Assembly: GCA_000018565.1 (NCBI GenBank)
Contig: CP000875.1
Coordinates: 505,199-569,198, forward strand
DNA length: 64,000 bases
Origin: Herpetosiphon aurantiacus DSM 785
GTDB lineage: Bacteria; Chloroflexota; Chloroflexia; Chloroflexales; Herpetosiphonaceae
Direction: 5' to 3'
Shown: positions 28,734-63,143 of the stretch, piece after piece
Position numbering within the stretch: the stretch's first letter is position 1
Layout of the letters: each line of letters opens with the position of its first letter
Made by a program: the position numbers and the translations under genes
Notes under the pieces: generated by a model
What the model was told of the DNA's origin: nothing
Seen by the model: the letters and a program-made list of their open reading frames with translations, nothing else
The model's database searches: none

Positions 28734-29256
28734 AATTCAGCCCTGCTGCTCAGTCGAGTAGCAGGGCTTTTTTATTTTGTGCCTTTATTTATCTTCTTGT
28801 AGGTATGGGTATTTCAGGTTTACAAATGAACACAACCATGTATTTTAGAATATATAAGTATGTATTTTATGTGAATTGATTTATTAAATTTAGATCTTAT
28901 AAATTATCAAAGCTTTACTATTATGCCTAAAATGTATATTGCATAATAAAGAGATATATGCTCTCATCTGTTTTGAGAGATATTCAACCGTGCTTCTTCT
29001 CTATCCTATCTCACAATTAATTCTAAATATACAGTGATATAGCTATCCTAGCATATGTTGCTTTACATTAGATCTAAGAACTCTCTATTTTGTATTTAAT
29101 TATTTTTAATGATTAAATATTTTTCTTCGTTAGATTATATATTTTATAACTCGATTTAAATAATAATTTCATTAAATATCATATCTTTTTAATACGTGTA
29201 ATATTAAAAAGAGTGATGCTATGATTTTTCGCCATTCTTGTAAAGGAGAGATTTCC
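28734..29256. other. About 520-bp AT-rich (roughly 25% GC) non-coding region opening a low-GC island
   Basis: Composition very unlike the flanking DNA (about 50% GC). No ORF longer than 60 aa. Confidence 0.8.
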
Positions 29257-29937
29257 ATGTTCAAAAAACTCAGCCTGATCGCATCAGTGGTACTTATGCT
29301 CATTGTGACACAATTTACGCCAGTCGAAGCACAAGAGCAATCACGCCAAATGGTTTTGGTGGCGGTTGATGTAAGTGCTATGTGTAGCGAATCGATTGAT
29401 TCCGCCAAGAATCATCCATGCGAAAAGGGAAGCAGTATCAGTGTCTATAGCATGCCTCTAGAGGACGCACAAAAACAAGGATACGGCGAATATGTCTTTA
29501 TTACCGGGGATACTACGTTGGATCGGCTTGCTTCTAAACAACTTGCTGATACACTCCATTTACAACTTACCAATGATAAACAAAAAGCTCCTGCTAATAC
29601 CCAAGCTTGTGGATCATATTATAAGAGTATTTCGCGCTCATTTACCATGGGCGGAGGGGTCTACAAACTTGATACATCGGTTCAGTACAAAGTTAATCCT
29701 ACTTGCCAAGTATCAGAAGAAACATATCGTGTAAAAACCTCAAAGACCCACTATGAATTACTTACATGGTCGATCAATTTCCCCAATGTCAATGTTTATA
29801 ATTCAATCCAATCTCAGCCAGGTTTAACCTGGACATCATATGCCTATAATGTTTGGATGAACTCAGGATTCCAACTTTCTGCCGAAACGTATTTTCCTGG
29901 GGAAACACACTGGGAATATTATACGTTGTACCAATAG
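29257..29937 (+). CDS. Secreted hypothetical protein (signal peptide MFKKLSLIASVVLMLIVTQFTPVEA), low-GC gene
   Basis: RBS aaggagag. About 41% GC. Cys-containing secreted protein with no recognised domain. Confidence 0.6.
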   Translation: MFKKLSLIASVVLMLIVTQFTPVEAQEQSRQMVLVAVDVSAMCSESIDSAKNHPCEKGSSISVYSMPLEDAQKQGYGEYVFITGDTTLDRLASKQLADTLHLQLTNDKQKAPANTQACGSYYKSISRSFTMGGGVYKLDTSVQYKVNPTCQVSEETYRVKTSKTHYELLTWSINFPNVNVYNSIQSQPGLTWTSYAYNVWMNSGFQLSAETYFPGETHWEYYTLYQ

Positions 29938-30034
29938 ATCCAAGAATATAAATTACCACTTGTAAGTAATGTCGATCATCCCTCGTGGTGAACACATCAA
30001 TCAAAGCCCGAGGGATGATCAAAGAAAGTAGGTT

Positions 30035-30601
30035 ATGCAACGTTTGATCGTAGCTATGCTGCTGTTGGTGATCCTCATCGGTTGTCGCCAACAACAAACA
30101 ACCCAGCCGCTTACTCCTTCGCCAATCAATAGTATTGATTCACGGAAGATTGAGGCAATCATTCTTAAGCCATTTCAGAATGAGCAGATTCAGAATCTTC
30201 AAATGTATCCAGTGGCAGGGCTTAACGAGGGAATGCTGTTTGTGTATCAGCTCGATTCAGCAAGAGGCAAAGCAATTGGTTTGTTGACTGGAGTTGAAAC
30301 TTTAGGCGAATTCTCAATCCGTAGCCAGTCCCTTGATATTCTTGGGCCTCAGAAGCCGTATGGTTTTTATCTGAGCAATGATGGTGGACAACCAAATTAC
30401 ATTGGCTATGGCTATATTCAACATCCAGAAACGATTAAGCAACTGCGAATTATATTGAGCGATGGTAACAGCTTGGTTGTTACTGGGAATACGATTACTG
30501 GCTTGGTCATGCCCAAACATAATCCGCCAATTCGACTAGAAGTTGTGGGAATAGATGGCACGATCATTGAACAGAATCCAATCACGCTTCCCACTCCTTG
30601 A
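30035..30601 (+). CDS. Lipoprotein (signal peptide with lipobox LIGC)
   Basis: MQRLIVAMLLLVILIGC. About 45% GC. Confidence 0.6.
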   Translation: MQRLIVAMLLLVILIGCRQQQTTQPLTPSPINSIDSRKIEAIILKPFQNEQIQNLQMYPVAGLNEGMLFVYQLDSARGKAIGLLTGVETLGEFSIRSQSLDILGPQKPYGFYLSNDGGQPNYIGYGYIQHPETIKQLRIILSDGNSLVVTGNTITGLVMPKHNPPIRLEVVGIDGTIIEQNPITLPTP

Positions 30602-48990: not shown

Positions 48991-51237
48991 ATGCCAGTTT
49001 CTCAAAAAAATACTCGCGATGGCGTAAGTGATCGCGCAAACAATCGCAAATCTGGCCGTGAAGGCTTCTCCGCTAGTAGCGGCGGCAGCGGTGGTAACCG
49101 TGGCGGCGGCGGTGGTGGCGGTGGCAACCGTGGCGGTGGTGGCGGTAGCGGTGGTAACCGCAATCGGCCTCAATCGCCTGGTGGTGCTCGTCCTGCCCGT
49201 AGCGGCGAAGACGATCGTAACCGCTCTGGTGGCGGCGGCGGTGGCGGTGGTGGCAACCGCAATAATAACCAAAGCCGTGGTGGCGGCGGCCCAGGTGGCA
49301 ATCGTGGTGGCGGCGGTGGCGGCGGTGGCGTTCCACCTCGTGGTAGCGGTGGCGTTCCACCCCGGGGCAGCGGTGGCCGTGGCCAAAACAACAATCAGCA
49401 AGGCGGTCGTGGCCGTGGTACGCCAATTATGGCTCGCCCAGTTGCTCCCGCCCGCCCACGTGGCCCAGTTGAGCTTGGGCCGGTCATGACGGTGCGTGAG
49501 TTATCCGAAGCACTCAGTGTTGGCGCAGCCGATATTATCAAAGAAATGCTCAAGCAAGGCATTTTGGCGAATATTAATCAGCAGCTTGATTATGAAACTG
49601 CCGCCGTGATTGCCGCCGAGTTTGATATCGAAACCTCTGAGCATGTGCCAGAACGGATGGCTGGCTTGGTTGATGATATTGGCGATGCGTTGCGGGCTGA
49701 AACAGCTGAAAATCTCAAAACCCGCCCACCAGTCGTCACGATCATGGGTCACGTTGACCACGGTAAGACCAAATTGCTCGATGCTGTGCGCTCAACCCGC
49801 GTGGCGGAAGGCGAAGCTGGCGGGATTACCCAGCACATTGGCGCGTATCAGGTTGAAATCCATGGCCGCAAAATTTCGTTCTTGGATACGCCTGGTCACG
49901 AAGCGTTTACCGCAATGCGGGCACGGGGAGCCACGGTTACCGATATTGTTATTTTGGTGGTAGCTGCCGACGACGGTGTGATGCCGCAAACGGCTGAGGC
50001 AATTGCCCACGTCAAAGCGGCTGGTGTGCCAATGATCGTGGCAATCAACAAAATCGATGTGCCTGGAGCCAATCCCGACCGCGTGCGCCAACAACTTGCT
50101 GGCGAAGGTGTAACTACCGAATCGTGGGGCGGCGATGTGCCCGATGTCGAAATTTCGGCCAAGCACAAGAAAAATATCGATGGCCTGTTGGATATGGTCT
50201 TGTTGGTCGCCGATTTGCAAGAATTGAAGGCCAACCCAGACAAACCAGCAATCGGTACAATCGTTGAAGCTGAGCTTGATAAAGGCCGTGGCCCAGTCGC
50301 AACCGTGCTGATTCAAAACGGCACGCTGCGCCAAGATGATATTGTGGTGGTCGGGGCAACCCACGGCAAGATTCGCGCAATGTTTACCGACATTGGCCGC
50401 CGGATTCGCATCGCTGAGCCAGCCACACCAGTCTCGATCATTGGGCTTTCAGAAGTGCCACAGGCTGGCGATATTTTGCAAGTGCTCGATGATCCACGGA
50501 TTGCCCGCGAGGTCGCAACGGTACGCCAACGCCAACGCCAAATGGAGCATATGGCCAATCAGCTTGGCAAAGCTACCACGCTTGATGAAGTGTACAAACA
50601 AATTCAAGCAGGCAAAATCAAAGATCTCAATATTATTCTCAAGGCTGACGTGCAAGGCTCAATTGGGGCAATCGAACACTCATTGGCTCAGTTGAACGAG
50701 AAACAAAGCGAGATCCAAATCAAGATTTTGCACCGTGGTACTGGCACAATCAGCGAATCGGACGTGAGCTTGGCCGTGGCTTCGCACGCGATTATCATTG
50801 GCTTTAATGCTCGGCCCGATGCTGCTGCACGCCGCAGCGCTGAAGCCAACGGGATTGATATTCGCTTCTACAACATCATTTACCAATTGATCGAAGACCT
50901 CAACAAGGCCATGATCGGGATGCTCGATCCTGAGATCAAAGAAGTAACCGATGGCTTTGCTGAAGTGCGCAATACCTTCCGCTTGCCATCACGCGAAGTT
51001 GTGGCTGGCTTGATGATGATCGACGGTAAAGTTACCCGTAACTCATTGGTACGGGTCTTGCGCTCAGGGGTCGTGCTGCACGATGGCCGAATTGGCTCGC
51101 TGCGCCGTTTCAAAGACGATGTGCGCGAAGTGCTTTCAGGCTATGAATGTGGGATTCAGATCGATGGCTTCAACGACATCGAAACTGGCGATACCATGGA
51201 ATTCTATCGCAAGGAAAAGATTATTCGTACCTCGTAA
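48991..51237 (+). CDS. infB: Translation initiation factor IF-2 with a Gly/Arg/Asn-rich N-terminal extension
   Basis: G-domain [20 protein letters not shown] aggagg. Confidence 0.97.
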
Positions 51238-52758: not shown

Positions 52759-53643
52759 TTGTTAGCTATGCTGCATGGATTTTTAAACATTGATAAACCT
52801 CAAGGCATAACCTCGACCGATGTGGTGCGGGTGGTCAAACGTAATGCGCGTCAAAAACGCGTTGGTCATGGCGGCACGCTTGATCCCATGGCAACGGGCG
52901 TGCTGCCGATTGCTTTGGGCAACGCCACGCGCTTGCTCGAATATCTGCTTGAGGAAGAGCGAAAAGCCTATACTGCAACCCTTCGACTGGGCATTACCAC
53001 TGATAGCGATGATGTTGAGGGCGCAGTGATCGCCGAAGCACCGATTCCGCCACTTGATCCAGCCTTGATTGAAAGCGTGCTCAGCCAATTTCGCGGCGCG
53101 ATCAACCAAGTTCCGCCGCAATATGCAGCAATTCGCGTCGATGGTAAGCGCATGTATGAATATGCCCGCGAAGGCAAGCATATCGAGTTGCCCGCCCGCC
53201 CAATCACCATTGAGCAACTTGATCTCTTGGCATGGGATGCCCAGCAATTAACGATTGCCGTTGATTGCAGCAAAGGCACCTATATTCGAGCGATTGCCCG
53301 TGATATTGGGGCATTGCTCGGTTGTGGTGCGCATTTAACTGCCTTACGCCGTACCCGCGCTGGAGCCTTTGATCTGAGCAACAGCATTGGCTTGGCCGAG
53401 CTTGATCAACAACCTGAGGTTTTTGCCGCAGCTTTATTGCCACCGCAGGCAGCAATTGCCAACTGGCCATTAATTAATTTGGCTGATGCGATTGTGGCGG
53501 ATGTGCGCATGGGTCGAGTTGTGCAGGTTGATAGCCAAGCCGAACGGGTTGGGTTGCTCGATCAAGCAGGCCAATTGGTAGCGATTGCCGTATTGCGTGA
53601 AGCTGGCTATCAGCCAATCAAGGTCTTTGCCGCCGAGGAATAA
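52759..53643 (+). CDS. truB: tRNA pseudouridine(55) synthase TruB
   Basis: GFLNIDKPQGITS and the catalytic GHGGTLDP motif. Confidence 0.92.
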   Translation: MLAMLHGFLNIDKPQGITSTDVVRVVKRNARQKRVGHGGTLDPMATGVLPIALGNATRLLEYLLEEERKAYTATLRLGITTDSDDVEGAVIAEAPIPPLDPALIESVLSQFRGAINQVPPQYAAIRVDGKRMYEYAREGKHIELPARPITIEQLDLLAWDAQQLTIAVDCSKGTYIRAIARDIGALLGCGAHLTALRRTRAGAFDLSNSIGLAELDQQPEVFAAALLPPQAAIANWPLINLADAIVADVRMGRVVQVDSQAERVGLLDQAGQLVAIAVLREAGYQPIKVFAAEE

Positions 53644-53767
53644 AAGCTGAGGCTATGGGCTTTTGGCGCTAGGGATTTATGGTCTATCCCAAACAAACTT
53701 CCGCTTGCCCAGAGCCTTCAGCCTAGAGCCTTATGCTCTGCTTTGTTAATAACGAACCCTTGAACTT

Positions 53768-54262
53768 CTAATGCGTCGCGTATGGTAAATAAACGAAATT
53801 GGCAGGCACGACTTTGAATGTGCGGGTGACACTTTGGCCTTGAAACGAACCACAATCATACTCAACATGCCAATTCCAAGCTTCTAAGGCATCGGCGGGG
53901 AGTGCTTGGGTTTGGGTATAGCTATAGGTAAATGACGATGGTGGTGGGCCAGAACCCATAGTGCCATTGAAAATATAGTTGCGATCGCCTGGGCCATTGA
54001 GGTAGATTTTGTGACCACAACGTGGGCCTTGCCAATTAAACGTCCATGAATTTGGGGCAATAGGTTGTGCCAAAACGGCATTATCGGCTGGTGATTGTAA
54101 AACTGATTCTGGCGGCGGAGTTGCAGTTGGCCCACCGCTGGCTTGCACAAGCTTGGTTGATGTTGCTGAATTAGCATTACCAGGATCAACCACAATACCG
54201 ACGACGAACAGTCCGATCAGCCCTATCAAAAGCATAGAACCTAAGCGTTTGATCCAATCCAT
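53768..54262 (-). CDS. Signal-anchored hypothetical secreted protein
   Basis: N-terminal TM LLIGLIGLFVVGIVV. No recognisable domain. Confidence 0.5.
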   Translation of the reverse strand: MDWIKRLGSMLLIGLIGLFVVGIVVDPGNANSATSTKLVQASGGPTATPPPESVLQSPADNAVLAQPIAPNSWTFNWQGPRCGHKIYLNGPGDRNYIFNGTMGSGPPPSSFTYSYTQTQALPADALEAWNWHVEYDCGSFQGQSVTRTFKVVPANFVYLPYATH

Positions 54263-54573
54263 ACCATCCTCCTAAACCATAGCCTCAGCTGTATCAATAA
54301 CAGCTAATATGCTATAGATTGATGGTAGTTTTTTCGGGTGCAATACACAATAGCCGATCATGGCTAGATTTACGCAGGATATGAGGATTATCAAGCTGAA
54401 ATTTAAATCTGACCTCTGATTCACTAGAACCTGACCCCTCGTACCTCTGTGTCTTTGGCTTAAAATCCAAATCTTCGCCCCCAACCCTTGAATGATCTTC
54501 AAATAGTGAAAAAAAAAGTGTTGTGTGTATCTAAATCTAGTGAAGCATATTCATCCTAGATTTGGAGGCTTTT

Positions 54574-55398
54574 ATGCCGGTTGTTGGAACTGCTCCCGTA
54601 AAGCCGTGCCCTCAATGTCAATTTCGTAATAAGTCTAGCGCAACATGTTGCCAAAAGTGTGGGCAAAATTTGGCTGCTGCACAAGCGCCTCAATCATATC
54701 AGCCAATCGCTCGCCCTACGGTTATCCCATCCGTTAATACAAGCATGGCAACTCCAACAACCAAGCCAATTGCCCCAACATCAATCCAGCTTTCGCCAAA
54801 CTCGGCTAGGAGTATGCTTCAGCCAAATCGCCAGCAATTATTGGCACAGCTGCAAATGTTTGCTTATGGCCTGATTGGCTTAGGAGCAGTCATTCTGGTT
54901 GGGTTAATCTTTGGTCTCTTTGTTAAAGGAGGCCTGAGCGGCGATTTAGGGGGTATTTTAGGTGGTGGGGTTGAGATTGGAGGCAGTGCTATCCATCTTT
55001 TGCTGTTATTACTTGCAACTTTATTTGAGGCGGGATTATCCAATGGAGGGATTATCGCCTTCGTTGTAATTATTATCATCCTGCTATTGCCTGCATATGC
55101 AATTTTTGCTATTACAACTGGCTCAAAAATCGCTAAGGCAATTATATTAAATCAAATGCCCTATTCTATAAAAAATCTTCAAATATTTAGCGGAATAATG
55201 ATCGGATTTTTTGGATTGATCTATGCATTAACTAATATTCAATTTAAGATGAATAGTAATGGGTTAGGAGGCTTTGGCGCGGAGGCTGGAATTGGTTTAG
55301 GATGGGGATTTACATTAAGTCTTTTCATAATGTTAGGAATATTTATTGGCTGTATTTGGTATAAAAATATAGCATTAAAACTTTTAGTTAACCCATAA
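54574..55398 (+). CDS. Zinc-ribbon (CPQC...CQKC) N-terminal domain fused to a Gly-rich 4-TM membrane domain; first gene of the vWA-PP2C-kinase module
   Basis: RBS ggagg. Double CxxC motifs in the first 30 aa. Four hydrophobic helices. Confidence 0.7.
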   Translation: MPVVGTAPVKPCPQCQFRNKSSATCCQKCGQNLAAAQAPQSYQPIARPTVIPSVNTSMATPTTKPIAPTSIQLSPNSARSMLQPNRQQLLAQLQMFAYGLIGLGAVILVGLIFGLFVKGGLSGDLGGILGGGVEIGGSAIHLLLLLLATLFEAGLSNGGIIAFVVIIIILLLPAYAIFAITTGSKIAKAIILNQMPYSIKNLQIFSGIMIGFFGLIYALTNIQFKMNSNGLGGFGAEAGIGLGWGFTLSLFIMLGIFIGCIWYKNIALKLLVNP

Positions 55399-55408
55399 AG
55401 GAGCAATT

Positions 55409-56077
55409 ATGGAATACGGATTAGAAAGCCCAATCAACTACGAACAAAAATGTCTGTGCATTCTAGTTGTTGATACATCAGGATCGATGCAAGGCAGGCC
55501 TATTGATGAATTGAATCAAGGTTTACAAGTATTTCATCAAGATATTAGCAATAGTTTTTCAACTGCCCAACGACTAGAAATCTGCCTTGTTGAATTCAAT
55601 AGTCAAGCTGATTGTATTGTTGAGCCTAGCTTAGTCGATCAATTTCATATGCCGATTTTGGCTGTTGCTGGCACAACCAAGTTGGTTGATGGGGTTAGGC
55701 TAGCGATTCATAAAGTCCAGGAACGCAAAAGCTGGTATCGTTCAACCGGACAACCCTATTATCGGCCTTGGATTATTTTAATGACTGATGGTGAGCCAGA
55801 TAGCGATCAAGATGTGGCTGGCTTGGCGCGTGAGATTCAGCATGGGGTCAACAATAAACAATTTGTCTTTTTTCCAATTGGGGTACAAGGGGCTGATATG
55901 CGTATGTTGCAACAGATTAGCACCCCTGATCGTCCTCCGATGCTGTTGCAAGGTTTACGCTTTGAAGCATTTTTTGACTGGTTAAGTGCAAGCCTATCAA
56001 TGGTTGCCAGTTCAACTGATGGTCAAGTTATTCAGTTACCATCAACAAGCGGTTGGGGAATTCTTCCCGTATCCTAA
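55409..56077 (+). CDS. von Willebrand factor A domain protein (TerY-like)
   Basis: MIDAS motif DTSGSM, plus downstream T (TKLVDG) and D (MTDGEPD) motifs. 10 nt after the previous gene. Confidence 0.85.
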   Translation: MEYGLESPINYEQKCLCILVVDTSGSMQGRPIDELNQGLQVFHQDISNSFSTAQRLEICLVEFNSQADCIVEPSLVDQFHMPILAVAGTTKLVDGVRLAIHKVQERKSWYRSTGQPYYRPWIILMTDGEPDSDQDVAGLAREIQHGVNNKQFVFFPIGVQGADMRMLQQISTPDRPPMLLQGLRFEAFFDWLSASLSMVASSTDGQVIQLPSTSGWGILPVS

Positions 56078-56133
56078 AATTGGTTGAGGTTAGTCGGCCA
56101 AAACTGACTAACCTCTTTTTTAAGGATGATCTG

Positions 56134-57549
56134 ATGAAACAGAATCAACGACCGCTTATTTTTGGGTTATTTACGCTGCTCCTGCTGAGTAGTATGCTGA
56201 TTGGCTTGCTCTTGATTCGGTTATCTACAACGAAGCAGCAAGCAACTGTGCCGAACCAGCAAGCAGCTACAACGAAACAGCAAGCAACCGCAACAAAGCA
56301 GCAACCAATTGCCAATTCACGTTCAATGACCATCACTCAATCAATCCTGCTTGCTACGCTTGAAGCGATCCCAGCCCCGATACCGACAATCGCGCCAATC
56401 TCTAATTCTGACCTAGCTAAGCTCGACCTTGCCAAACCAACACCTGTTCTTCGAGCCGCAAATAATACTAAGAATGACCTAATCACAGGCTTTTTATGGT
56501 TGAGTGTGCTCATACTTGGCGGATATTTTTTATGGTCACGGTGGTTGGGTTCGCTTCAACTCTTGCCACAAGATCATCCTCGGCCTACGCAGTCTAGGCC
56601 GAAATCATTGGCCACGCCGCCAATTAATCCTGTCCAGCCAAAGCCCAGCCCAGCTATTGTTCCTATGCCTGCCAGCAGCCCTAGACCAACAGCTGAGCCT
56701 AGGAGACGTAATGCTAACTATCAATTACATATATTTCAAGATTCGGTCATCGGGCTGAGCCATACTCAACACGGCTTGCCATGTCAAGATAGCTCAGCTC
56801 ATAGAGCGCTGGATAATGGCTGGGGAGTTGCAGTAGTGGCTGATGGGTTGGGCAGTCGTAAATTATCAGATCGTGGCTCGCAATTTGTGGTTAAACACAC
56901 CTGTGAAAAACTATTTGATCTATTGCACCACTATGCTTGGCATAAAACCAACCAATTACCCACAGAGCAGCAATGGCAGGGCTATGTGAAGGCTGCTTTT
57001 TATGATGTTTATAAGGAATTACTCCAGGAAGCTAAAGTAAACGATCAATCGATTCATGAGTATGCCTGCACATTAATCAGTGTTATTTATAGCCCAATTG
57101 GCATTTTGGTGGCTCATGTAGGTGATGGTCGGGCTGGTTATAGCGATCGGTATGGTCAATGGCATTCGATGATTACGCCCCATAAGGGTGAAGAAGCCAA
57201 TGAGGTGATGCCGTTTACTGCCGATCAAGTCTGGAAAAATCCTCAAGAGCTGATCGAATGTCGGGTGATTCAAGAACCTATTTGTGGGTTTGTCTTGATG
57301 TCTGATGGATGCGAGAAACATACCTTCCAGTGTAGTCAATTTGATCAAGCGAATGAGCGTTGGCACGACCCAAATCAACCACATCAACAATTTTTTGATC
57401 GGTTACAACAACTATTTCGTGAACAAAAACAAAAAGGTTGTAAAGCTGAAGAATTAAAAAAGATGTTTAAAGATATTCTATTGCGAGGGACTACAGGTTT
57501 TGCAAATGAGTCAGATGATAAAACCATGATTCTTGGTTTGTGGATCTAG
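56134..57549 (+). CDS. Membrane-anchored PP2C-family Ser/Thr phosphatase with a Gln/Thr-rich repeat linker
   Basis: N-terminal TM. QQAT.TKQQAT repeats. PP2C motifs VVADGLGS, VAHVGDGRAGY, VLMSDGCE. Confidence 0.8.
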   Translation: MKQNQRPLIFGLFTLLLLSSMLIGLLLIRLSTTKQQATVPNQQAATTKQQATATKQQPIANSRSMTITQSILLATLEAIPAPIPTIAPISNSDLAKLDLAKPTPVLRAANNTKNDLITGFLWLSVLILGGYFLWSRWLGSLQLLPQDHPRPTQSRPKSLATPPINPVQPKPSPAIVPMPASSPRPTAEPRRRNANYQLHIFQDSVIGLSHTQHGLPCQDSSAHRALDNGWGVAVVADGLGSRKLSDRGSQFVVKHTCEKLFDLLHHYAWHKTNQLPTEQQWQGYVKAAFYDVYKELLQEAKVNDQSIHEYACTLISVIYSPIGILVAHVGDGRAGYSDRYGQWHSMITPHKGEEANEVMPFTADQVWKNPQELIECRVIQEPICGFVLMSDGCEKHTFQCSQFDQANERWHDPNQPHQQFFDRLQQLFREQKQKGCKAEELKKMFKDILLRGTTGFANESDDKTMILGLWI

Positions 57550-57568
57550 GCATGATATAAGGATTTTA

Positions 57569-58771
57569 ATGATGACTTTTAGCTATCGAACCAAACAGCA
57601 TATCCATGTTCAACTTGATCAGCTGAATCCGCTTGGTAAGGGTGGCGAAGGTAGTGTCTATTCTGTTATCAATACGCCGAACTACCCTAATCACTGTGCA
57701 AAAATTTTTCATCCTAACCGATTAACTGCTGATTTAGAGCGAAAAATTAACTTTATGGTCGATAATCAACCTTCAACTCTCATAAGTACAAATTATCGGA
57801 TTGCTTGGCCGATTGCTTCGTTATATCACAATAAAAAATTCTATGGTTTTATTATGCCAAAAGCATTTGATAAAAGTATTGGCCTTGAGCGTGTAACTCA
57901 ACCTCAGATTAGCCTCAAAGGTATTGATACTCAATGGATTAAATATCAGCGCAATGATAAACAAGGGATGATTAATTGTTTTAAAGTTTGTGTAAATATT
58001 GCCTTCATTGTTAACCTTATTCATCAAATGAAAAAATATACCTTTGTTGATCTAAAACCTCAAAATATTTTAGTTAACCTCAATGGTTTTGTATCGATTA
58101 CCGATATTGATTCGATGCAAGTGTATGATCCTCAGAAAAATCTGTATTATAAATCTGTAGTTTCTACTGCTGAATACTCGCCACCTGAATATCAAAGCTA
58201 CTTGAAAAAAGGAGGAAATATCACACAAGAATGGGATAATTTTTCGATGGCAGTAATTTTTTATCAATTAATGACCGGGGTTCACCCGTTTGCCGCAACA
58301 TTTGGTGGTAAATTTAGTAATTCAACAACAATTGATGATCATATTAGCCAAAGCTTATTTGTATTTGGAGATAATCGGCAGACAATAACGAAATTGCCAC
58401 CATTACATACATATTATCAGCAAATTCCATTGAATATTCAACAATTATTTTTACGAGCATTTGATAAACCAGTCAGCCAGCGCCCAACTGCCGAAGAGTG
58501 GGGGCAGAATCTATTTGAGTTAGTTTCTAAGGATTCGCATTTGATCGCATCGAACACAGCAGTTGCGGCGCTGGCATTACCAGTAAAATCAGCCTTGAAG
58601 CCGGCTGCTCAATCAACAACTGGCCATGTTCAGATGTTCCAATTAACGAAGGCTTCCACTCATAGTCAGGGGTCTCAATCAACGAAAGCTCCACATAAGA
58701 GTTATGCTTGGGTTGGTTGGCTGATTGTGCTCGTTTGTATTATTGTGGTGATTGCTGTTGCCAACGCCTAA
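57569..58771 (+). CDS. Atypical eukaryotic-like Ser/Thr protein kinase with a C-terminal TM anchor
   Basis: G-loop LGKGGEGSVY. Lysine region CAKIF. Catalytic loop FVDLKPQNILVN. ITDIDS in the DFG position. YSPPEY in the APE position. C-terminal helix WVGWLIVLVCIIVVIAV. Confidence 0.8.
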   Translation: MMTFSYRTKQHIHVQLDQLNPLGKGGEGSVYSVINTPNYPNHCAKIFHPNRLTADLERKINFMVDNQPSTLISTNYRIAWPIASLYHNKKFYGFIMPKAFDKSIGLERVTQPQISLKGIDTQWIKYQRNDKQGMINCFKVCVNIAFIVNLIHQMKKYTFVDLKPQNILVNLNGFVSITDIDSMQVYDPQKNLYYKSVVSTAEYSPPEYQSYLKKGGNITQEWDNFSMAVIFYQLMTGVHPFAATFGGKFSNSTTIDDHISQSLFVFGDNRQTITKLPPLHTYYQQIPLNIQQLFLRAFDKPVSQRPTAEEWGQNLFELVSKDSHLIASNTAVAALALPVKSALKPAAQSTTGHVQMFQLTKASTHSQGSQSTKAPHKSYAWVGWLIVLVCIIVVIAVANA

Positions 58772-59673
58772 AGGCCAATAATGCCGCGCCGACGCAAAAA
58801 GGGCAAGATACTTTGTTCAAGTGGGCGATCGGTGCGGATGCCAGCATAGGTTGCGCCATAGCGTTGACATACTTGTTCGTGCATGCGTACCCAACGAACT
58901 AATTTTTCGCGATAGGCTTTGTGCGTTTGTTGATCAAGCTCAAGCGCCAGTACTTGGCCAGTTTCGCTATCCTCGAATTCGACTGGGCCAGTCAGGGTCG
59001 GCTTAATTTCTTCGGGGTGCAGTAGATGCAAGACGACAACTTGCCAAACTGGTGGAGCGGCAGCCCGCAGCAATGGCTCTAAATCGCTTGTCCATAAATC
59101 TGAAATAATTAAAAGCATGCCGCCAGCACTGCGCCGAACTGCTTGAATAACTGGGGTGAATGAGGTTTGTTCAGCCCAGTTCAAATTGCTTAAATAACGC
59201 AGCATATCAGGGCCACGCGCCCGACTGACCATCGGCCCAAATGGCTTGATTAATTTGCTGGTGAAGGGCCAAATTGTGGTTTGATCGTTTGAGGTTAGGC
59301 CGAGGTAGCCCAGCATTGCCGCTAATCGCAAGGCATAACGGCCTTTGTGCAACTCACCATGGCCCCAATCCAACGAGGCTGAGCAATCCAAGGCGATGGT
59401 TACATTAATATCTTGCTCGGTTTCGCCCAGTTTGAGATGCAAATCTTCGTGACGGGCATAGGCAAACCAATCAACGTGGCGCAGATCATCGCCTGGGCTA
59501 TAGGCGCGATGGTCGCTAAATGTTGGTGCGGGCAAGCGGCGGCGTGAGGCATGTTCGCCACTCAAACCACCACGCAAGTTACGGCGCGAACGCAAGGCCA
59601 AGCGCTCGATCCGCGCTAAAAATTCTGGGTTGAATAGATCGCCGCTAGCGCCCGAAGTAGTCTTGAATCGCAT
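58768..59673 (-). CDS. DUF58 domain protein (vWA-like; the usual MoxR partner)
   Basis: GDDLRHVDWFAYAR...INVTIALDCSASL is the DUF58 signature. Start set at MRFKTTSG to remove the overlap with the upstream gene. Confidence 0.8.
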   Translation of the reverse strand: MRFKTTSGASGDLFNPEFLARIERLALRSRRNLRGGLSGEHASRRRLPAPTFSDHRAYSPGDDLRHVDWFAYARHEDLHLKLGETEQDINVTIALDCSASLDWGHGELHKGRYALRLAAMLGYLGLTSNDQTTIWPFTSKLIKPFGPMVSRARGPDMLRYLSNLNWAEQTSFTPVIQAVRRSAGGMLLIISDLWTSDLEPLLRAAAPPVWQVVVLHLLHPEEIKPTLTGPVEFEDSETGQVLALELDQQTHKAYREKLVRWVRMHEQVCQRYGATYAGIRTDRPLEQSILPFLRRRGIIGL

Positions 59674-60979
59674 CGCGTAGCTCCGCTGGAATATTGGCTG
59701 GATCGTTAATATTGTCAGGAACGCTGCCACCACTGCTCTCAGGATTTCCGCCGCCAGTACCTTCACCACCTGGCAGAGTGATTGAGATATCGCCGCCAGT
59801 GCCAGCGGTGGTTTCGCCAGTTGGTGGGGCTTCAGGCAAATCGAGATCAGGGCCAAGTGGATCAGCGGGGGGCGATGAACGACTGCCAGTAGCTGAATTA
59901 TTGCCAGCACCATTATTATTGGGCTGGCCAGTTTCAGGTTGTCCAGTCTGGCCTTGTTGCTGGTCGCTGCCTGCCTGAGGATCGTTGCTGGTTTGGCCTT
60001 GTTGCTGGTCTCCATTGCCAAAATCGGCTTGAGCATTATCAAGTTGATCAGTTAGTTGGGCCAAATCTTCGAGTGCATCGGCAGCATTTTGAGGATTCCC
60101 ACGCAATTGGTCGGCATTGTTGCGCAAACGCTCGGCCACTTCAGGCTGATCTTGCAACTGCTCGGCAGCTTGCTCAAGCCCATCGGCTATTTCGTTGCGG
60201 GTTTGGGGCGATAACTGATCGGCTTGATCGGCTAGCTTGGCCAGCTCCTCGCTGGCTTGTTGCACATCGCCACGGCGTAGCGCATCGGCGGCAGCGCGGG
60301 TTGCGCCATTATCGCTCAAGCCATCGGCTAAAGCATCGGCTATTTCTTGGCCTTCGGGGCCAAGCTCGGGCTGTTGATCAGGTTGGCTGCCAACTGGCTG
60401 ATTGGGATCGGCAGCTGGATCTTGCTCGGCGGCAGGCTGCTGGGGTGGCTCGGTGGTCGCCAAACTTGCCAATTCGCTCAATGGCTCGGTGGTGGCAGCG
60501 GGCAAACCGGCGTTGATTTGACCAAGCACAAACAGTCCAGTTGCCAACAGCGCGGCTAAGCCTAAACTTTGCCATTCAAGCGCAATTGGGGCAAGCACAC
60601 GGCTGGTTGCATCGCGGGCGACACTGGGCAAACGTCGATTCGCCCGTTCAAGATTGACAGCATGAAAACCATCACGCTGATTTTGAAACTCGCTGGCAGT
60701 GCTCAGTTGGGCATTTAATTGATATTGTTGATCAAGTAATTGTGCTAAGTGAGCAGGTGAGAGAATCGACTTCCAAGCATAAACCACGCCCAACGCTGCA
60801 ACGAGAATCACGATTAAACTTAGAATTGGCCATGAAAGCGGCCAAGCTAGCCAGTTTCGGCCAATTAAGCCAAGGCACAGCACGCCAAGCGTCATCCATG
60901 CGGCGCGAATCAGCAGGCGCTGGCGGTGATAGCGCTGGAGTTCTGTATGTAATTCAGTCAGTTGTTGATTAATATTCAT
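59645..60979 (-). CDS. Membrane protein with 3-4 N-terminal TM helices and a long acidic Gln/Asp/Ala/Gly-rich low-complexity C-terminal region, co-transcribed with the DUF58 gene
   Basis: 29-bp overlap with the DUF58 start. Composition. Confidence 0.6.
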   Translation of the reverse strand: MNINQQLTELHTELQRYHRQRLLIRAAWMTLGVLCLGLIGRNWLAWPLSWPILSLIVILVAALGVVYAWKSILSPAHLAQLLDQQYQLNAQLSTASEFQNQRDGFHAVNLERANRRLPSVARDATSRVLAPIALEWQSLGLAALLATGLFVLGQINAGLPAATTEPLSELASLATTEPPQQPAAEQDPAADPNQPVGSQPDQQPELGPEGQEIADALADGLSDNGATRAAADALRRGDVQQASEELAKLADQADQLSPQTRNEIADGLEQAAEQLQDQPEVAERLRNNADQLRGNPQNAADALEDLAQLTDQLDNAQADFGNGDQQQGQTSNDPQAGSDQQQGQTGQPETGQPNNNGAGNNSATGSRSSPPADPLGPDLDLPEAPPTGETTAGTGGDISITLPGGEGTGGGNPESSGGSVPDNINDPANIPAELRDAIQDYFGR

Positions 60980-61139
60980 TGTGTGCTCCTAGCCTTGGCA
61001 CGCTGGTGAATAGCTGCATGCGCTGAAGCGTGGGAAGTGCAACCAATCAATTGCTTTTAGGAGTGTACCATAGAATGACAATGGATCGGCCTCTGCTATA
61101 ATTGACAGTTGGAACTGATACACCACCGCAGGAGGATTT

Positions 61140-63143
61140 GTGACTCAAGCACATACACTCGATGAACGGGCCATCAATACAATCCGCATGTTGTCGGTTG
61201 ATGGTGTGCAAGCGGCTAATTCGGGCCACCCAGGTTTACCAATGGGGGCAGCGGCCATGGCTTATGTGCTCTGGACGCGCCACCTCAAACATAATCCGGC
61301 TAATCCAGATTGGGCTGATCGCGACCGCTTTGTGCTGTCGGCGGGCCATGGCTCAATGCTGTTGTATAGTTTGTTGCATCTCACGGGCTATGATCTTTCG
61401 CTCGATGATTTGAAGAATTTCCGCCAATGGCATAGTAAAACCGCTGGTCACCCAGAATATGGTTATGCCGCCGGCATCGAAACCACAACTGGGCCACTTG
61501 GCCAAGGATTTGCCACGGGCGTGGGTATGGCGATTGCTGCCCGTCACTTAGCAGGCACGTTCAATCAGCCTGAACTCGAAATCGTCAAGCATCATATTTA
61601 TGCGATTGTCTCCGATGGCGATTTGGAAGAGGGGATTAGCGCCGAAGCTGCTTCGTTGGCAGGTCACCTCAAATTGGGCGAACTTATCTATCTGTATGAT
61701 GATAACGAAATTTCGATTGAAGGCGATACCTCAATTGCCTTTACCGAAGATGTGCCAGCCCGTTTCCGCGCCTATGGCTGGCATGTCCAAGAGATCGACG
61801 GGCTTGATCCTGAGCAAGTTGATGCAGCCTTGCATGCTGCCAAAGCGGTGACCGATCAGCCATCGTTGATTGTGGCTCACACCGTGATTGGCTTTGGCTC
61901 GCCCAATCGGGCTGGCACGGCCAAAGCTCACGGCTCGCCGCTCGGCCCCGATGAAGTTAAATTGACCAAGGAAGCGCTTGGTTGGCCGCTCGAACCAACC
62001 TTCTACATTCCTGAAGAAGTCTTGGCCCACTTCCGCCAAGCCTTGGATCATGGTGCGGCGGCAGAGCAAGCCTGGAACGAATTGCTCGAACGCTACACGG
62101 CGGCGCATCCTGAAAAAGCTGCTGATTTCAAGCAACGCATGTCGGGTGAATTGCCAGCAGGTTGGGATAGTACCTTGCCAGTTTGGCCAGCTGATGCCAA
62201 AGGCGTGGCAACCCGCAAATCATCAGAAACTGCCTTGAATGCCTTGGCCGAGCAAATTCCAGCGCTCATTGGCGGCTCAGCTGATTTGGCCGAATCGACC
62301 TTTACCTTGATCGAGCATGCTCAATCGTTCCAAGCCGATACGCCGCAAGGCCGCAATATGCACTGGGGGATTCGTGAGCATGCTATGGTTGCTGCCGTCA
62401 ACGGGATGGCGTTGCATGGCGGCACGATTCCTTACGGCGCAACCTTCTTGGTTTTCAGCGATTATTGCCGTGCCTCGATTCGCTTGGCAGCCTTGATGGG
62501 CATTCGCACGATTCAAGTCTTTACTCACGATAGCATTGGGGTTGGCGAAGACGGCCCAACCCACCAACCAATCGAACACATTCCATCGTTGCGGATTATC
62601 CCCAATTTGAATGTGATGCGGCCTGGTGATGCCAACGAAACCAGCCAAGCTTGGCGCGTAGCAGTCAGCCATAAAGGCCCAACCTTGCTGGCCTTGACCC
62701 GCCAAAACTTACCAACGCTTGATCGCACCCGCTATGCCTCGGCTGAGGGTGTGGCTCAAGGTGGCTATGTCTTGGCTGATAGCGCTGGTCAACCAGAATT
62801 AATCATCATTGCAACTGGCTCGGAATTGCAACATGCCGTGGCGGCCTACGAGCAATTGAGTGGCGAAGGAGTCAAGGTACGGGTGGTCAGTATGCCATCA
62901 ACCTTGCTGTTCGACGCTCAGTCAGTGGAATATCGCGAGAGCGTACTGCCCAAGGCTGTGACCAAACGGATTGCGATTGAAGCTGCGCATCCCGTGACCT
63001 GGTATAAATATGTTGGGACTGAGGGCGATATTATTGGGATTGATCACTTCGGTGCTTCAGCGCCAATTAATATTTTGATGAAGGAATTTGGCTTTACCGC
63101 CGAAAACCTGATTGCTCGTGCCAAGGCCTTGTTGGCCAAATAA
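61140..63143 (+). CDS. tkt: Transketolase
   Basis: TPP-binding region [10 protein letters not shown]...[10 protein letters not shown], and the full 667-aa architecture. GTG start after RBS aggagg. Confidence 0.95.

What the first reader, a model, noticed from the sequence alone, without database searches (positions are those of the whole stretch)
54574..58771. Four-gene membrane-associated signalling module: Zn-ribbon/4-TM protein, TerY-like vWA, PP2C phosphatase, atypical Ser/Thr kinase
Four tightly spaced same-strand genes (gaps of 10-55 nt). The vWA gene carries a complete MIDAS motif (DTSGSM...TDG). The PP2C gene carries three metal-binding DG motifs. The kinase is eukaryotic-like but divergent (FVDLKPQN instead of HRD, TDID instead of DFG). 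The vWA + PP2C + kinase triad matches the 'TerY-P' architecture from comparative genomics (Anantharaman/Iyer/Aravind), which I believe has since been reported in anti-phage screens. In this locus every catalytic partner is membrane-tethered: an N-terminal TM on PP2C, a C-terminal TM on the kinase, and an extra upstream Zn-ribbon membrane protein. The PP2C linker is a tandem QQAT.TKQQAT repeat. The module sits immediately after the conserved nusA-infB-truB operon and is convergent with an orphan DUF58 gene. It is the most system-like unexplained block in the window.
Basis: partly seen in the sequence, partly recalled or inferred. Interest (0 to 1): 0.8.

Follow-up and report, generated by a model that had tools for sequence, protein, structure and literature searches.

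The report
Membrane-anchored vWA–phosphatase–kinase triad plus orphan
This is a real four-gene operon in Herpetosiphon: three genes are a membrane-anchored version of a known but functionally unsolved bacterial trio (adaptor, phosphatase, kinase; E. coli YegL-PphC-YegI, the "TerY-P" class), and the fourth is a zinc-ribbon membrane protein found only in this genus.

Summary
Four co-directional genes with ribosome-binding sites lie at 54574-58771, separated by 10, 56 and 19 nt. They match H. aurantiacus Haur_0481-0484. Genes B, C and D pass Pfam thresholds for VWA, PP2C_2 and Pkinase, and their catalytic and MIDAS residues are invariant across relatives.

All three are homologous to E. coli YegL, PphC and YegI, and to the tellurite-operon TerY/PP2C/kinase triad. 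So this is a true TerY-P-class triad. The "atypical" kinase motifs and the membrane anchoring are family traits already shown for YegI.

The triad is only remotely related to the TerY-P homologue from E. coli G3/10 used in anti-phage work. An anti-phage role here is therefore inferred, not shown.

The order vWA-PP2C-kinase recurs in nine loci from other phyla, often on plasmids, mobile elements or viral contigs. Three of these carry EAD11 adaptor genes. The Zn-ribbon/multi-TM gene A is confined to Herpetosiphon, where it is syntenic in all genomes examined and fast-evolving.

In all three Herpetosiphon species compared, the module is GC-poor and evolves faster than its flanks.

Verdict: a new variant of a known kind, of moderate interest.

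The parts
54530..54566 (+). Conserved inverted repeat or 5'-UTR hairpin just upstream of gene A. Its 3' arm covers the first 3 nt of the GGAGG Shine-Dalgarno sequence. It is either a candidate operator or a translational control element.
   Evidence: It lies in the only conserved block of an otherwise divergent 311-530 nt intergenic region. RNAalifold gives a 13-bp stem with one compensatory pair, CG<->AU. The single-sequence fold is -19.0 kcal/mol, z = -3.8. Only three sequences are available, so support is weak.
54574..55398 (+). Gene A (Haur_0481, 274 aa). It has an N-terminal CxxC...CxxC zinc ribbon (residues 12-29, nt 54607-54660), a P/Q/A-rich linker of variable length, and 4-5 glycine-rich TM helices (about residues 90-268). 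It is a genus-restricted orphan.
   Evidence: The start has an RBS. The Pfam DZR match is weak. TM segments are predicted. The orthologue alignment shows an invariant Zn-ribbon. Homologues exist only in Herpetosiphon. dN/dS is 0.21-0.36, so the gene is a real coding sequence under relaxed purifying selection.
55409..56077 (+). Gene B (222 aa): a soluble TerY/YegL-type vWA protein with a complete MIDAS (D22, S24, S26, T90, D127).
   Evidence: Pfam VWA scores 41 bits. B is 43% identical to E. coli YegL, E 8e-48. It is about 26% identical over more than 83% of its length to the ter-operon TerY vWA genes on 2,318 plasmids. The MIDAS residues are invariant. No TM segment is predicted.
56086..56115 (+). 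Conserved 12-bp GC-rich hairpin followed by a U-tract, in the B-C intergenic gap. It is a candidate intrinsic terminator or attenuator that would let A-B be expressed above C-D.
   Evidence: It matches the terminator scan. The fold is -19.3 kcal/mol, z = -4.3. The stem is kept in two other species with a compensatory A-U to G-C change, but their U-tracts are weaker.
56134..57549 (+). Gene C (Haur_0483, 471 aa): a membrane-anchored PP2C_2 phosphatase. Layout: TM1 at residues 5-33; a roughly 80-aa outside loop carrying the QQAT repeat (nt 56225-56308); TM2 at residues 115-135; a Pro-rich linker; and the cytoplasmic PP2C domain at about residues 205-471.
   Evidence: Pfam PP2C_2 scores 137.5 bits. 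TM segments are predicted and the repeat is found. The metal-binding Asp residues are invariant. C is homologous to E. coli PphC (E 4e-14) and to the ter-operon PP2C (E 3e-14).
57569..58771 (+). Gene D (Haur_0484, 400 aa): a YegI-type Ser/Thr kinase. The kinase domain spans about residues 20-312 and is followed by a linker and a C-terminal tail-anchor TM (residues 376-400). The stop codon overlaps that of the convergent DUF58 gene.
   Evidence: Pfam Pkinase scores 70.1 bits. K45, D161, K163, N166, D179, D181 and S182 are conserved. D is 27% identical to E. coli YegI, E 1e-21. The profile match to the ter-operon kinase has probability 99.1%. The TM segment is predicted and the stop overlap is seen.

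Best explanation
The block is one operon (Haur_0481-0484). It encodes a reversible Ser/Thr phosphorylation switch of the TerY-P / YegL-PphC-YegI class, assembled on the cytoplasmic face of the membrane.

**Shown by homology.**
- D is an active-type YegI-like kinase. Its D-x-D-S activation segment (S182 corresponds to YegI Ser162) is the autophosphorylation site.
- C is a Mn/Mg-dependent PP2C that resets the kinase, as PphC does for YegI.
- B is a soluble TerY-type vWA protein with a complete MIDAS.

**Inferred.**
- The kinase is held at the membrane by a tail anchor.
- The phosphatase is held there by two TM helices that expose an ~80-residue, fast-evolving outside loop. This loop is the likely sensor of an envelope-level cue.
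- B uses its metal site to bridge the phosphorylated partner to a target.
- The genus-specific protein A is the membrane output or partner. Its invariant cytoplasmic zinc ribbon would be the docking or phosphorylation handle. Its glycine-rich helices would be the part that acts on the membrane.

**Most likely biological role.** A conflict-type (anti-phage or anti-invader) or envelope-damage response. It was probably inherited from a mobile, low-GC cassette and then fixed in the Herpetosiphon chromosome.

**On the confidence value.** The identity of the triad is near-certain. The stated confidence applies to the whole layered model, including the inferred role of A and the conflict-type function.
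For: **Domain identity and conserved catalytic residues.**

**Homology to characterised proteins.**
- E. coli YegL/PphC/YegI. Published biochemistry shows that YegI is active despite lacking HRD and DFG, that its DSD motif and Ser162 are essential, and that it sits in the inner membrane (bioRxiv 10.1101/819920). PphC dephosphorylates YegI (bioRxiv 10.1101/303594).
- The ter-operon triad.

**Operon structure.** Gaps are short, each gene has its own RBS, the A-B gap of 10 nt is identical in three species, and the organisation is the same throughout.

**Topology.** Hydropathy and the positive-inside rule.

**Context of related triads.** The order vWA-PP2C-kinase is kept in nine non-Herpetosiphon loci. 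These include:
- a plasmid (L094)
- a mobilisable element (L099)
- an IS-flanked copy (L089)
- neighbours such as STAND, HipA and EAD11 genes

Five further IMG/VR viral contigs carry complete triads.

**Evolutionary signature.**
- The module has GC3 of 0.30-0.39, against 0.43-0.56 in the flanks.
- dN/dS is 0.21-0.36 for A and about 0.30 for C, against 0.01-0.08 for the housekeeping genes on either side.
Against: - No experiment links this branch of triads to any phenotype. E. coli yegL-pphC-yegI is silent under tested conditions and its role is still unknown in 2026 (PMC13232886).
- The module sits at a fixed place between housekeeping operons in every Herpetosiphon genome examined. There are no flanking mobility or defence genes. 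This is unusual for a defence island.
- Gene A has no recognisable effector domain. Its structure model is unusable (pLDDT 42).
- A is absent from all other triads, so it cannot be a general component of the mechanism.
- The role of the vWA protein as bridge or substrate is pure inference.
- TM predictions come from a simple hydropathy scan, not a dedicated predictor.
Confidence: 0.45

Rival explanations
1. It is a bona fide member of the TerY-P anti-phage defence family (Gao et al. 2020; E. coli G3/10 homologue) and works the same way.
For: - The three-domain architecture and gene order are the same.
- TerY-P was reported to protect against T7-like phages (PMC7699616).
- Relatives of the window triad occur on plasmids, mobile elements and viral contigs.
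Against: - BLASTP of B, C and D against the G3/10 proteins gives E = 0.02, no domain alignment, and 0.47.
- Profile comparison gives probability 94% for the vWA (superfamily level), 0.1% for the phosphatase and 61% for the kinase.
- The TerY-P-like systems shown to defend have an OB fold at the kinase C-terminus (PMC11090510). This kinase has only a TM tail.
- PADLOC gives no hit, but it also fails on E. coli YegL and PphC, so that result is uninformative.
- The locus is fixed in the core chromosome.
Confidence: 0.12
2. It is a housekeeping envelope-stress or metal-stress signalling module with no role in conflict. The PP2C outside loop would sense an envelope or ion cue, and the kinase/phosphatase pair would tune a membrane process through A.
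For: - The module is syntenic and present in all Herpetosiphon genomes seen, over synonymous divergence of at least 1.
- Its neighbours are housekeeping genes.
- The E. coli homologues are also chromosomal at a fixed locus.
- TerY triads were originally tied to tellurite and metal stress operons (PMC11090510).
- B is strongly conserved (dN/dS 0.06).
Against: - Composition is atypical, and A, C and D evolve fast compared with every flanking gene.
- The closest relatives sit in mobile or conflict-type contexts with EAD11 adaptors.
- No ter genes and no transporter lie nearby.
Confidence: 0.3
3. Gene A is only a neighbour: a lineage-specific membrane orphan that happens to lie upstream and is not part of the triad's function.
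For: - A is absent from all nine triad loci outside the genus and has no relatives in 1.84 billion representative proteins.
- Its synonymous divergence between two species is about three times that of B and C, which hints at a separate history.
Against: - A lies on the same strand, and the gap to B is the same 10 nt in three species.
- No terminator-like site lies between A and B, whereas one lies between B and C.
- A shares the low GC3 of the triad.
- Its zinc ribbon is invariant while the rest of the protein diverges.
- Other triads also carry variable small membrane or zinc-ribbon genes immediately upstream, for example DUF805 plus a 60-aa CxxC protein in L092 and a membrane protein in L089.
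Confidence: 0.12

Closest known systems
E. coli K-12 YegL - PphC (YegK) - YegI
   Same: - All three proteins are homologous: 43%, 25% and 27% identity, with E 8e-48, 4e-14 and 1e-21.
- The gene order is the same: vWA, PP2C, kinase.
- The kinase has a non-HRD catalytic loop and D-x-D-S in place of DFG, with identical spacing between the catalytic Asp and the D-x-D motif (18 residues).
- The kinase is a membrane protein.
- The locus is chromosomal and fixed.
   Different: - PphC is a soluble 253-aa protein. Here the phosphatase has a ~200-residue N-terminal extension with two TM helices.
[quoted passage not shown] Here the kinase ends in a single tail-anchor TM and has no zinc motif.
- E. coli has no gene equivalent to A.
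TerY-P triad of tellurite-resistance (ter) operons, e.g. IncHI2 plasmid pEh27_2 (Anantharaman, Iyer and Aravind 2012, as summarised in PMC11090510)
   Same: - TerY-type vWA, PP2C and kinase lie in the same order.
- B is about 26% identical to the TerY vWAs.
- The PP2C match has E 3e-14.
- The kinase profile match has probability 99.1% and E 9e-19.
   Different: - The ter locus has three TerY paralogues, one with a TerY-C metal-binding domain, plus TerD/TerW and biosynthetic genes.
- None of those is present here.
- The ter proteins are not membrane-anchored in the same way.
TerY-P anti-phage system (Gao et al. 2020; E. coli G3/10 homologue, NZ_CP060075 59618-62877)
   Same: - It is a three-gene cassette of vWA, Ser/Thr phosphatase and Ser/Thr kinase in the same order.
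   Different: - Sequence relationship is at or below the limit of detection.
- The TerY-P-like systems shown to defend have an OB fold at the kinase C-terminus (PMC11090510).
- The cassette lies next to a type I R-M system in a variable island.
Membrane-anchored triads of Bacteroidota/Chloroflexota (unnamed; loci L010, L089, L090, L092, L094, L097, L099, L100)
   Same: - These are the closest relatives: B 52-59%, C 30-39% and D 34-43% identical.
- The PP2C has an N-terminal TM anchor.
- The kinase has a TM 60-80 residues after the kinase domain.
- The cassettes have low GC.
   Different: - The upstream accessory genes differ: EAD11 adaptor proteins, DUF805 plus a small zinc-ribbon protein, other membrane proteins, or none.
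- The kinases often carry outside SH3_3, TPR, Sel1 or other domains, and are sometimes duplicated in tandem.
- Many sit on plasmids or mobile elements rather than at a fixed core locus.

Membership tests
TerY-P triad (sensu Anantharaman/Iyer/Aravind; definition taken from PMC11090510 and PMC4978471) | TerY-like vWA protein with MIDAS | tested here: met
   Pfam VWA scores 41 bits. The MIDAS residues are invariant. B matches the ter-operon TerY vWA genes at full length, about 26% identity, and is 43% identical to YegL.
TerY-P triad (sensu Anantharaman/Iyer/Aravind; definition taken from PMC11090510 and PMC4978471) | Adjacent PP2C-like phosphatase | tested here: met
   PP2C_2 scores 137.5 bits. 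The catalytic Asp residues are invariant. The match to the ter-operon PP2C has E 3e-14.
TerY-P triad (sensu Anantharaman/Iyer/Aravind; definition taken from PMC11090510 and PMC4978471) | Adjacent Ser/Thr kinase of the same clade | tested here: met
   Pkinase scores 70.1 bits. The profile match to the ter-operon kinase has probability 99.1% and E 9e-19 over 304 columns.
TerY-P triad (sensu Anantharaman/Iyer/Aravind; definition taken from PMC11090510 and PMC4978471) | Kinase fused at its C-terminus to a zinc ribbon (or OB fold) | tested here: not met
   The kinase ends in a TM helix and has no Cys/His motif. A zinc ribbon is present only in the separate protein A. This fusion is described as typical in PMC11090510 but is not universal.
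TerY-P triad (sensu Anantharaman/Iyer/Aravind; definition taken from PMC11090510 and PMC4978471) | Association with ter genes or with DNA-processing/restriction modules | tested here: not met
   The neighbours are nusA-infB-rbfA-truB, a DUF58 operon and transketolase.
E. coli YegL-PphC-YegI clade | Significant pairwise homology of all three proteins, in the same order | tested here: met
E. coli YegL-PphC-YegI clade | Kinase lacks HRD and DFG, has an essential D-x-D followed by an autophosphorylated Ser, and is membrane-bound (bioRxiv 10.1101/819920) | tested here: met
   The window kinase has VD161LKPQN and D179-I-D181-S182 and a C-terminal TM. Kinase activity itself cannot be tested here.
TerY-P anti-phage system (E. 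coli G3/10 type) | Sequence-family membership of the three proteins | tested here: not met
   BLASTP gives E 0.02, no domain alignment, and 0.47. hhalign probabilities are 94%, 0.1% and 61%.
TerY-P anti-phage system (E. coli G3/10 type) | Hit to a curated defence-system model | tested here: inconclusive
   PADLOC gives no hit for A, B or C and only generic kinase hits for D. The same library also misses E. coli YegL and PphC. NCBIfam release 20 gives no TerY-P family hit even for the G3/10 proteins. DefenseFinder models are not available.
TerY-P anti-phage system (E. coli G3/10 type) | Protection against phage | not testable with these tools
   This needs a phage challenge of the cloned operon.
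EAD-coupled conflict systems (Kaur et al. 2020, PMC7159879) | An effector-associated domain on a component or on an adjacent gene | tested here: not met
   No EAD hit is found on A-D or the flanking genes. EAD11 is present upstream of related triads in L010, L089 and L097.
Double zinc ribbon (Pfam DZR) membrane proteins, for gene A | Score above the Pfam gathering threshold | tested here: inconclusive
   The score is 17.9 bits against a cut-off of 27.3. The CxxC-x10-CxxC pattern is invariant. The profile search hits the zinc ribbons of many multi-ribbon proteins at E 1e-9 to 1e-4.

The most novel reading that the evidence does not exclude
Gene A is a previously undescribed output component of a TerY-P-class switch. 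It would be a glycine-rich multi-pass membrane protein whose invariant cytoplasmic zinc ribbon is engaged by the vWA protein, or phosphorylated through the kinase/PP2C pair, to permeabilise or remodel the membrane. Under this reading the upstream position of these triads is a swap-in slot for lineage-specific effectors: EAD11 adaptors, DUF805 plus a zinc ribbon, or other membrane proteins. This locus would then offer a simple four-gene system for finding out what TerY-P/YegLKI triads actually control.
Probability: 0.2. Interest if true: 0.6.

Novelty: new variant of a known kind. Interest (0 to 1): 0.35.

Why it matters
Triads of vWA, PP2C and kinase are widespread. They occur in E. coli K-12 itself, in tellurite-resistance plasmids, in CoCoNuT restriction systems and in a reported anti-phage system. 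Yet nobody knows what signal they sense, what the vWA protein does, or what the output is.

This locus adds three points:

1. A sizeable Bacteroidota/Chloroflexota branch has both enzymes anchored in the membrane. That points to an envelope-level signal.
2. The position just upstream of the vWA gene is occupied by different lineage-specific genes in different hosts: EAD11 adaptors, small zinc-ribbon proteins or membrane proteins. This is the pattern expected of exchangeable effectors or adaptors.
3. In Herpetosiphon a compact four-gene version is fixed in the chromosome. Its candidate output is a single orphan membrane protein, which makes it experimentally tractable.

The analysis also shows that the name "TerY-P" covers at least two branches too distant for a phenotype to be transferred between them by homology.

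Tried and rejected
- **Structure of gene A.** AlphaFold2 on the 4-sequence alignment gave pLDDT 42 and pTM 0.27. The model is unusable, so no fold search was run.
- **Genome-collection scan with the kinase alignment.** Presence or absence across Chloroflexota therefore could not be surveyed systematically.
- **PADLOC.** There were no hits for A, B or C. The E. coli control showed the library cannot recognise this class, so the negative result carries no weight.
- **NCBIfam.** No TerY-P models are present, even though PGAP uses such names.
- **Rfam on 53000-61500.** Nothing was found at E <= 1.
- **Primary literature.** The Anantharaman 2012 paper (PMC4104200) is not held. Its definition of the triad was taken second-hand from PMC11090510 and PMC4978471.
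- **Literature on the locus tags.** A search for Haur_0481-0484 found nothing.
- **PDB sequence searches.** They found only generic vWA and kinase structures, and none for the PP2C_2 domain.
- **Rejected idea: A's zinc ribbon split off from the kinase.** The YegI-type motif after the kinase is C-x5-H-x(n)-C-x-W-C. The motif in A is CPQC-x10-CQKC. They are at most analogous.
- **Rejected idea: the DUF58 gene is part of the system.** It is convergent with the module, has its own upstream partner, is highly conserved (95-96% identity), has normal GC, and is absent from all other triad loci.

Full report
**1. What is in the sequence**

Four co-directional ORFs occupy 54574-58771. Each has a purine-rich ribosome-binding site a few bases before an ATG:
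- A: 54574-55398, 274 aa
- B: 55409-56077, 222 aa
- C: 56134-57549, 471 aa
- D: 57569-58771, 400 aa

The gaps are 10, 56 and 19 nt. Gene calls on public contigs that carry the identical proteins give the same boundaries. Exact-sequence look-up places the proteins in Herpetosiphon aurantiacus DSM 785: gene A is Haur_0481 (ABX03132), and the PP2C and kinase are ABX03134 and ABX03135, i.e. Haur_0481-0484 by consecutive numbering. They also occur in a Herpetosiphon MAG. No paper mentions these locus tags. The stop codon of D overlaps the stop of a convergent DUF58 gene.

**2. Domain identities**

Pfam gives the following:
- B: VWA, 41 bits (cut-off 23.8)
- C: PP2C_2, 137.5 bits (cut-off 24)
- D: Pkinase, 70.1 bits (cut-off 31.7)
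- A: only a sub-threshold double-zinc-ribbon match, 17.9 vs 27.3 bits

- vWA: MIDAS residues D22-x-S24-x-S26, T90 and D127.
- PP2C: CQD219, AD237G, GD331G, SD391G and D461D462KT.
- Kinase: GGEG loop, K45, VD161-L-K163-PQ-N166 and D179-x-D181-S182.

Tandem Repeats Finder confirms the QQAT repeat as a 21-nt unit in 4 copies at 56225-56308. It is not conserved in the orthologues.

A hydropathy scan gives:
- two TM segments in C (residues 5-33 and 115-135) ahead of the catalytic domain;
- one TM at the extreme C-terminus of D (residues 376-400);
- four to five TM segments in A after a zinc ribbon and a P/Q/A-rich linker;
- none in B.

With the positive-inside rule, the zinc ribbon, the PP2C domain, the kinase domain and the vWA protein all face the cytoplasm. 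An ~80-residue loop of C faces outward.

**3. What the triad is**

B, C and D are homologous to E. coli K-12 YegL (43% identity, E 8e-48), PphC/YegK (25%, E 4e-14) and YegI (27%, E 1e-21). Those three genes lie in the same order in E. coli.

They are also homologous to the archetypal TerY-P triad of tellurite-resistance operons.
- B matches the TerY vWA genes of 2,318 plasmids at about 26% identity over more than 83% of its length.
- One such locus on an IncHI2 plasmid reads TerW, TerY, TerD-family, TerY, TerY-C, PP2C, kinase.
- Its PP2C aligns with C at E 3e-14.
- Its kinase matches the profile of D's family with probability 99.1%, E 9e-19, over 304 columns.

The triad is therefore a true member of the TerY-P class as defined in PMC11090510 and PMC4978471.

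The features that made the kinase look unusual are family traits. YegI has VGDxxQxS instead of HRD and DSD instead of DFG. Changing DSD to DFG abolishes its activity. Ser162 after the DSD is the essential autophosphorylation site. YegI is an inner-membrane protein (bioRxiv 10.1101/819920). The window kinase has the same spacing between the catalytic Asp and the D-x-D motif (18 residues) and has S182 at the position of Ser162. PphC is a Mn-dependent phosphatase that dephosphorylates YegI (bioRxiv 10.1101/303594).

**4. Relation to the reported anti-phage TerY-P**

The supplement of bioRxiv 10.1101/2022.08.27.505566 gives the start of a TerY-P homologue from E. coli G3/10. I located it in the G3/10 chromosome, where RefSeq names its three genes "TerY-P anti-phage system...".

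Against these proteins the window's B, C and D give BLASTP E-values of 0.02, no domain alignment, and 0.47. Profile comparison gives 94% for the vWA (superfamily level), 0.1% for the phosphatase and 61% for the kinase.

The architecture is shared, but the families are too far apart to transfer a phenotype.

PADLOC finds nothing for A, B or C. It also finds nothing for E. coli YegL and PphC, so that negative result is uninformative. As late as 2026 the role of YegL-PphC-YegI was still unknown and the genes were not expressed under tested conditions (PMC13232886).

**5. Relatives and their neighbourhoods**

The kinase has relatives at 34-43% identity in Bacteroidota, Anaerolineae and unassigned metagenomic contigs. 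Every one of the nine such loci I could read has vWA, PP2C_2 and kinase in that order.

In this subfamily:
- the PP2C usually has an N-terminal TM anchor, with or without a large outside domain;
- nearly every kinase has a TM 60-80 residues after the kinase domain, followed by nothing or by SH3_3, TPR, Sel1 or other outside domains.

Membrane tethering is therefore a subfamily trait, not a peculiarity of this locus. Kaur et al. 2020 already noted kinases fused "to TM helices" in vWA-PP2C-kinase sets (PMC7159879).

The contexts are often mobile or conflict-like:
- a plasmid with RepA, ParA and a relaxase (L094);
- a mobilisable element with relaxase and VapE (L099);
- an IS-flanked copy (L089);
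- neighbours such as a STAND NTPase (L090) and HipA (L092).

Five IMG/VR viral contigs also carry complete triads.

The gene just upstream of the vWA gene varies:
- EAD11 adaptor proteins in L010, L089 and L097;
- a DUF805 membrane protein plus a 60-aa CxxC...CxxC protein in L092;
- other membrane proteins;
- nothing in Acaryochloris.

**6. Gene A**

A word-indexed search of 5.8 billion proteins found only three clusters, all from Herpetosiphon. An exhaustive profile search of 1.84 billion representatives found one full-length relative, which is the Herpetosiphon cluster. Otherwise it found only zinc-ribbon matches in unrelated multi-ribbon proteins.

In H. llansteffanensis and Herpetosiphon sp. 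NSE202 the gene sits in the same place, 10 nt upstream of the vWA gene. Among orthologues that are 53-58% identical overall:
- the first 19 residues and the four Cys are invariant;
- the linker varies in length by 18 residues;
- the glycine-rich TM region and the C-terminal CIWYKN motif are conserved.

dN/dS of 0.21-0.36 shows a real gene under relaxed purifying selection. The structure model was of too low confidence to use. A is thus a genus-restricted orphan that is stably linked to the triad.

**7. History of the module in Herpetosiphon**

The four genes are syntenic between truB (plus a 164-aa minus-strand gene) and the DUF58 operon in all genomes seen.

- Composition: they are GC-poor in all three species (0.35-0.45, against 0.52-0.56 for most flanking genes). 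GC3 in the window is 0.30-0.39 against 0.43-0.56.
- Divergence: protein identity to the other species is 53-57% for A, 87% for B, 62-63% for C and 70-72% for D. The housekeeping flanks are 89-96% identical.
- Selection: dN/dS is 0.06 for B, 0.12-0.16 for D and about 0.30 for C, against 0.01-0.08 for the housekeeping flanks.

The nearest triads are in low-GC Bacteroidota, with GC of 0.33-0.37. This fits an old horizontal acquisition that was then fixed. That origin is an inference.

**8. Regulatory features seen**

A 12-bp GC-rich hairpin with a U-tract lies in the B-C gap at 56086-56115. It folds at -19.3 kcal/mol, z = -4.3. The stem is kept in the other two species with a compensatory change, although their U-tracts are weaker. 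It could lower C-D expression relative to A-B.

Just upstream of A, the only conserved block of the intergenic region contains an inverted repeat at 54530-54566. Its 3' arm covers the first three bases of the Shine-Dalgarno sequence, and it shows one compensatory pair. Three sequences cannot distinguish an RNA hairpin from a DNA operator.

**9. Mechanism**

Shown by homology:
- a YegI-type kinase that autophosphorylates on the Ser after D-x-D;
- a PP2C that reverses this;
- a TerY-type vWA protein with an intact metal site.

Inferred:
- all of these act at the inner face of the membrane;
- the outside loop of the phosphatase, which is the fastest-evolving part of C, is the likely sensor;
- the vWA protein bridges the phosphorylated partner to a target;
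- A is the lineage-specific membrane partner or output.

I favour a conflict-type or envelope-damage response, because of the contexts of the relatives and the evolutionary signature. The fixed core location and the absence of any recognisable effector keep a housekeeping stress-signalling role a serious rival.

**10. Verdict**

This is a TerY-P-class triad, but of the YegL-PphC-YegI branch rather than the branch reported as anti-phage. Its "atypical" and membrane-bound features are already known for the family. What is new is modest: a membrane-anchored subfamily that has not been described as such, a variable accessory slot upstream of the vWA gene, and a genus-specific zinc-ribbon membrane orphan in that slot.

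Noticed in passing
window 56086-56115: A terminator-like hairpin (12-bp stem plus TTTTTT) lies inside the operon, between the vWA and PP2C genes. It is conserved with a compensatory change in two other Herpetosiphon species. It suggests A-B and C-D are expressed at different levels.
   Followed up: partly
window 54530-54566: A conserved inverted repeat or 5'-UTR hairpin overlaps the first bases of gene A's Shine-Dalgarno sequence. It lies in the only conserved block of an otherwise divergent intergenic region whose length varies from 311 to about 530 nt.
   Followed up: partly
window 53768-54262 (- strand): A 164-aa protein with an N-terminal signal or anchor and no family match is divergently transcribed from gene A. 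It is syntenic in all three species but only 65% identical (dN/dS 0.12-0.25), evolving much faster than the housekeeping flanks. Whether it belongs to the module is unknown.
   Followed up: no
window 58768-58771: The kinase stop (TAA, 58769-58771) and the stop of the convergent DUF58 gene (58768-58770, minus strand) overlap. The same overlap is seen in the gene calls of the other two species. No terminator lies between the two convergent operons.
   Followed up: no
L007 5755-6624 vs L008 10001-10873: Between H. llansteffanensis and strain NSE202, synonymous divergence of gene A is 0.70. The adjacent vWA and PP2C genes show about 0.25. This may reflect allele replacement by recombination, or misalignment in the repetitive linker.
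   Followed up: no
L010 4632-7241; L089 5118-5483; L097 2253-2624: EAD11 (effector-associated domain 11) proteins lie immediately upstream of the vWA gene in three independent triads related to the window's. I did not find this linkage described in the papers read.
   Followed up: partly
L010 9992-13324; L089 8001-11125; L097 5088-8188: In three related triads the kinase gene is duplicated in tandem: one long copy with an outside domain and one shorter copy.
   Followed up: no
window 54574-54670 (GenBank ABX03132, Haur_0481): The original GenBank annotation of H. aurantiacus DSM 785 calls this gene at 242 aa. That start lies downstream and cuts off the invariant zinc ribbon. The RefSeq protein WP_287045171.1 has the full 274 aa.
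   Followed up: yes
window about 28500-30600: This is the other lowest-GC stretch of the window (about 0.40). It holds two small genes for secreted proteins or lipoproteins (29221-29937 and 30035-30601). They were not scanned against any family library.
   Followed up: no
window 48991-49500 (infB 5' end): IF2 has a long Gly/Asn/Arg-rich N-terminal low-complexity region. In the other two species the gene is called about 145 residues shorter, with a separate small ORF upstream in H. llansteffanensis (L007). This region may therefore be variable or mis-called.
   Followed up: no
L102-L106 (IMG/VR viral contigs): Complete YegL-type vWA-PP2C-kinase triads occur on contigs classified as viral. In one of them (L105) the kinase lies upstream of the vWA gene. 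I did not check whether these are prophage cargo or misclassified host DNA.
   Followed up: partly
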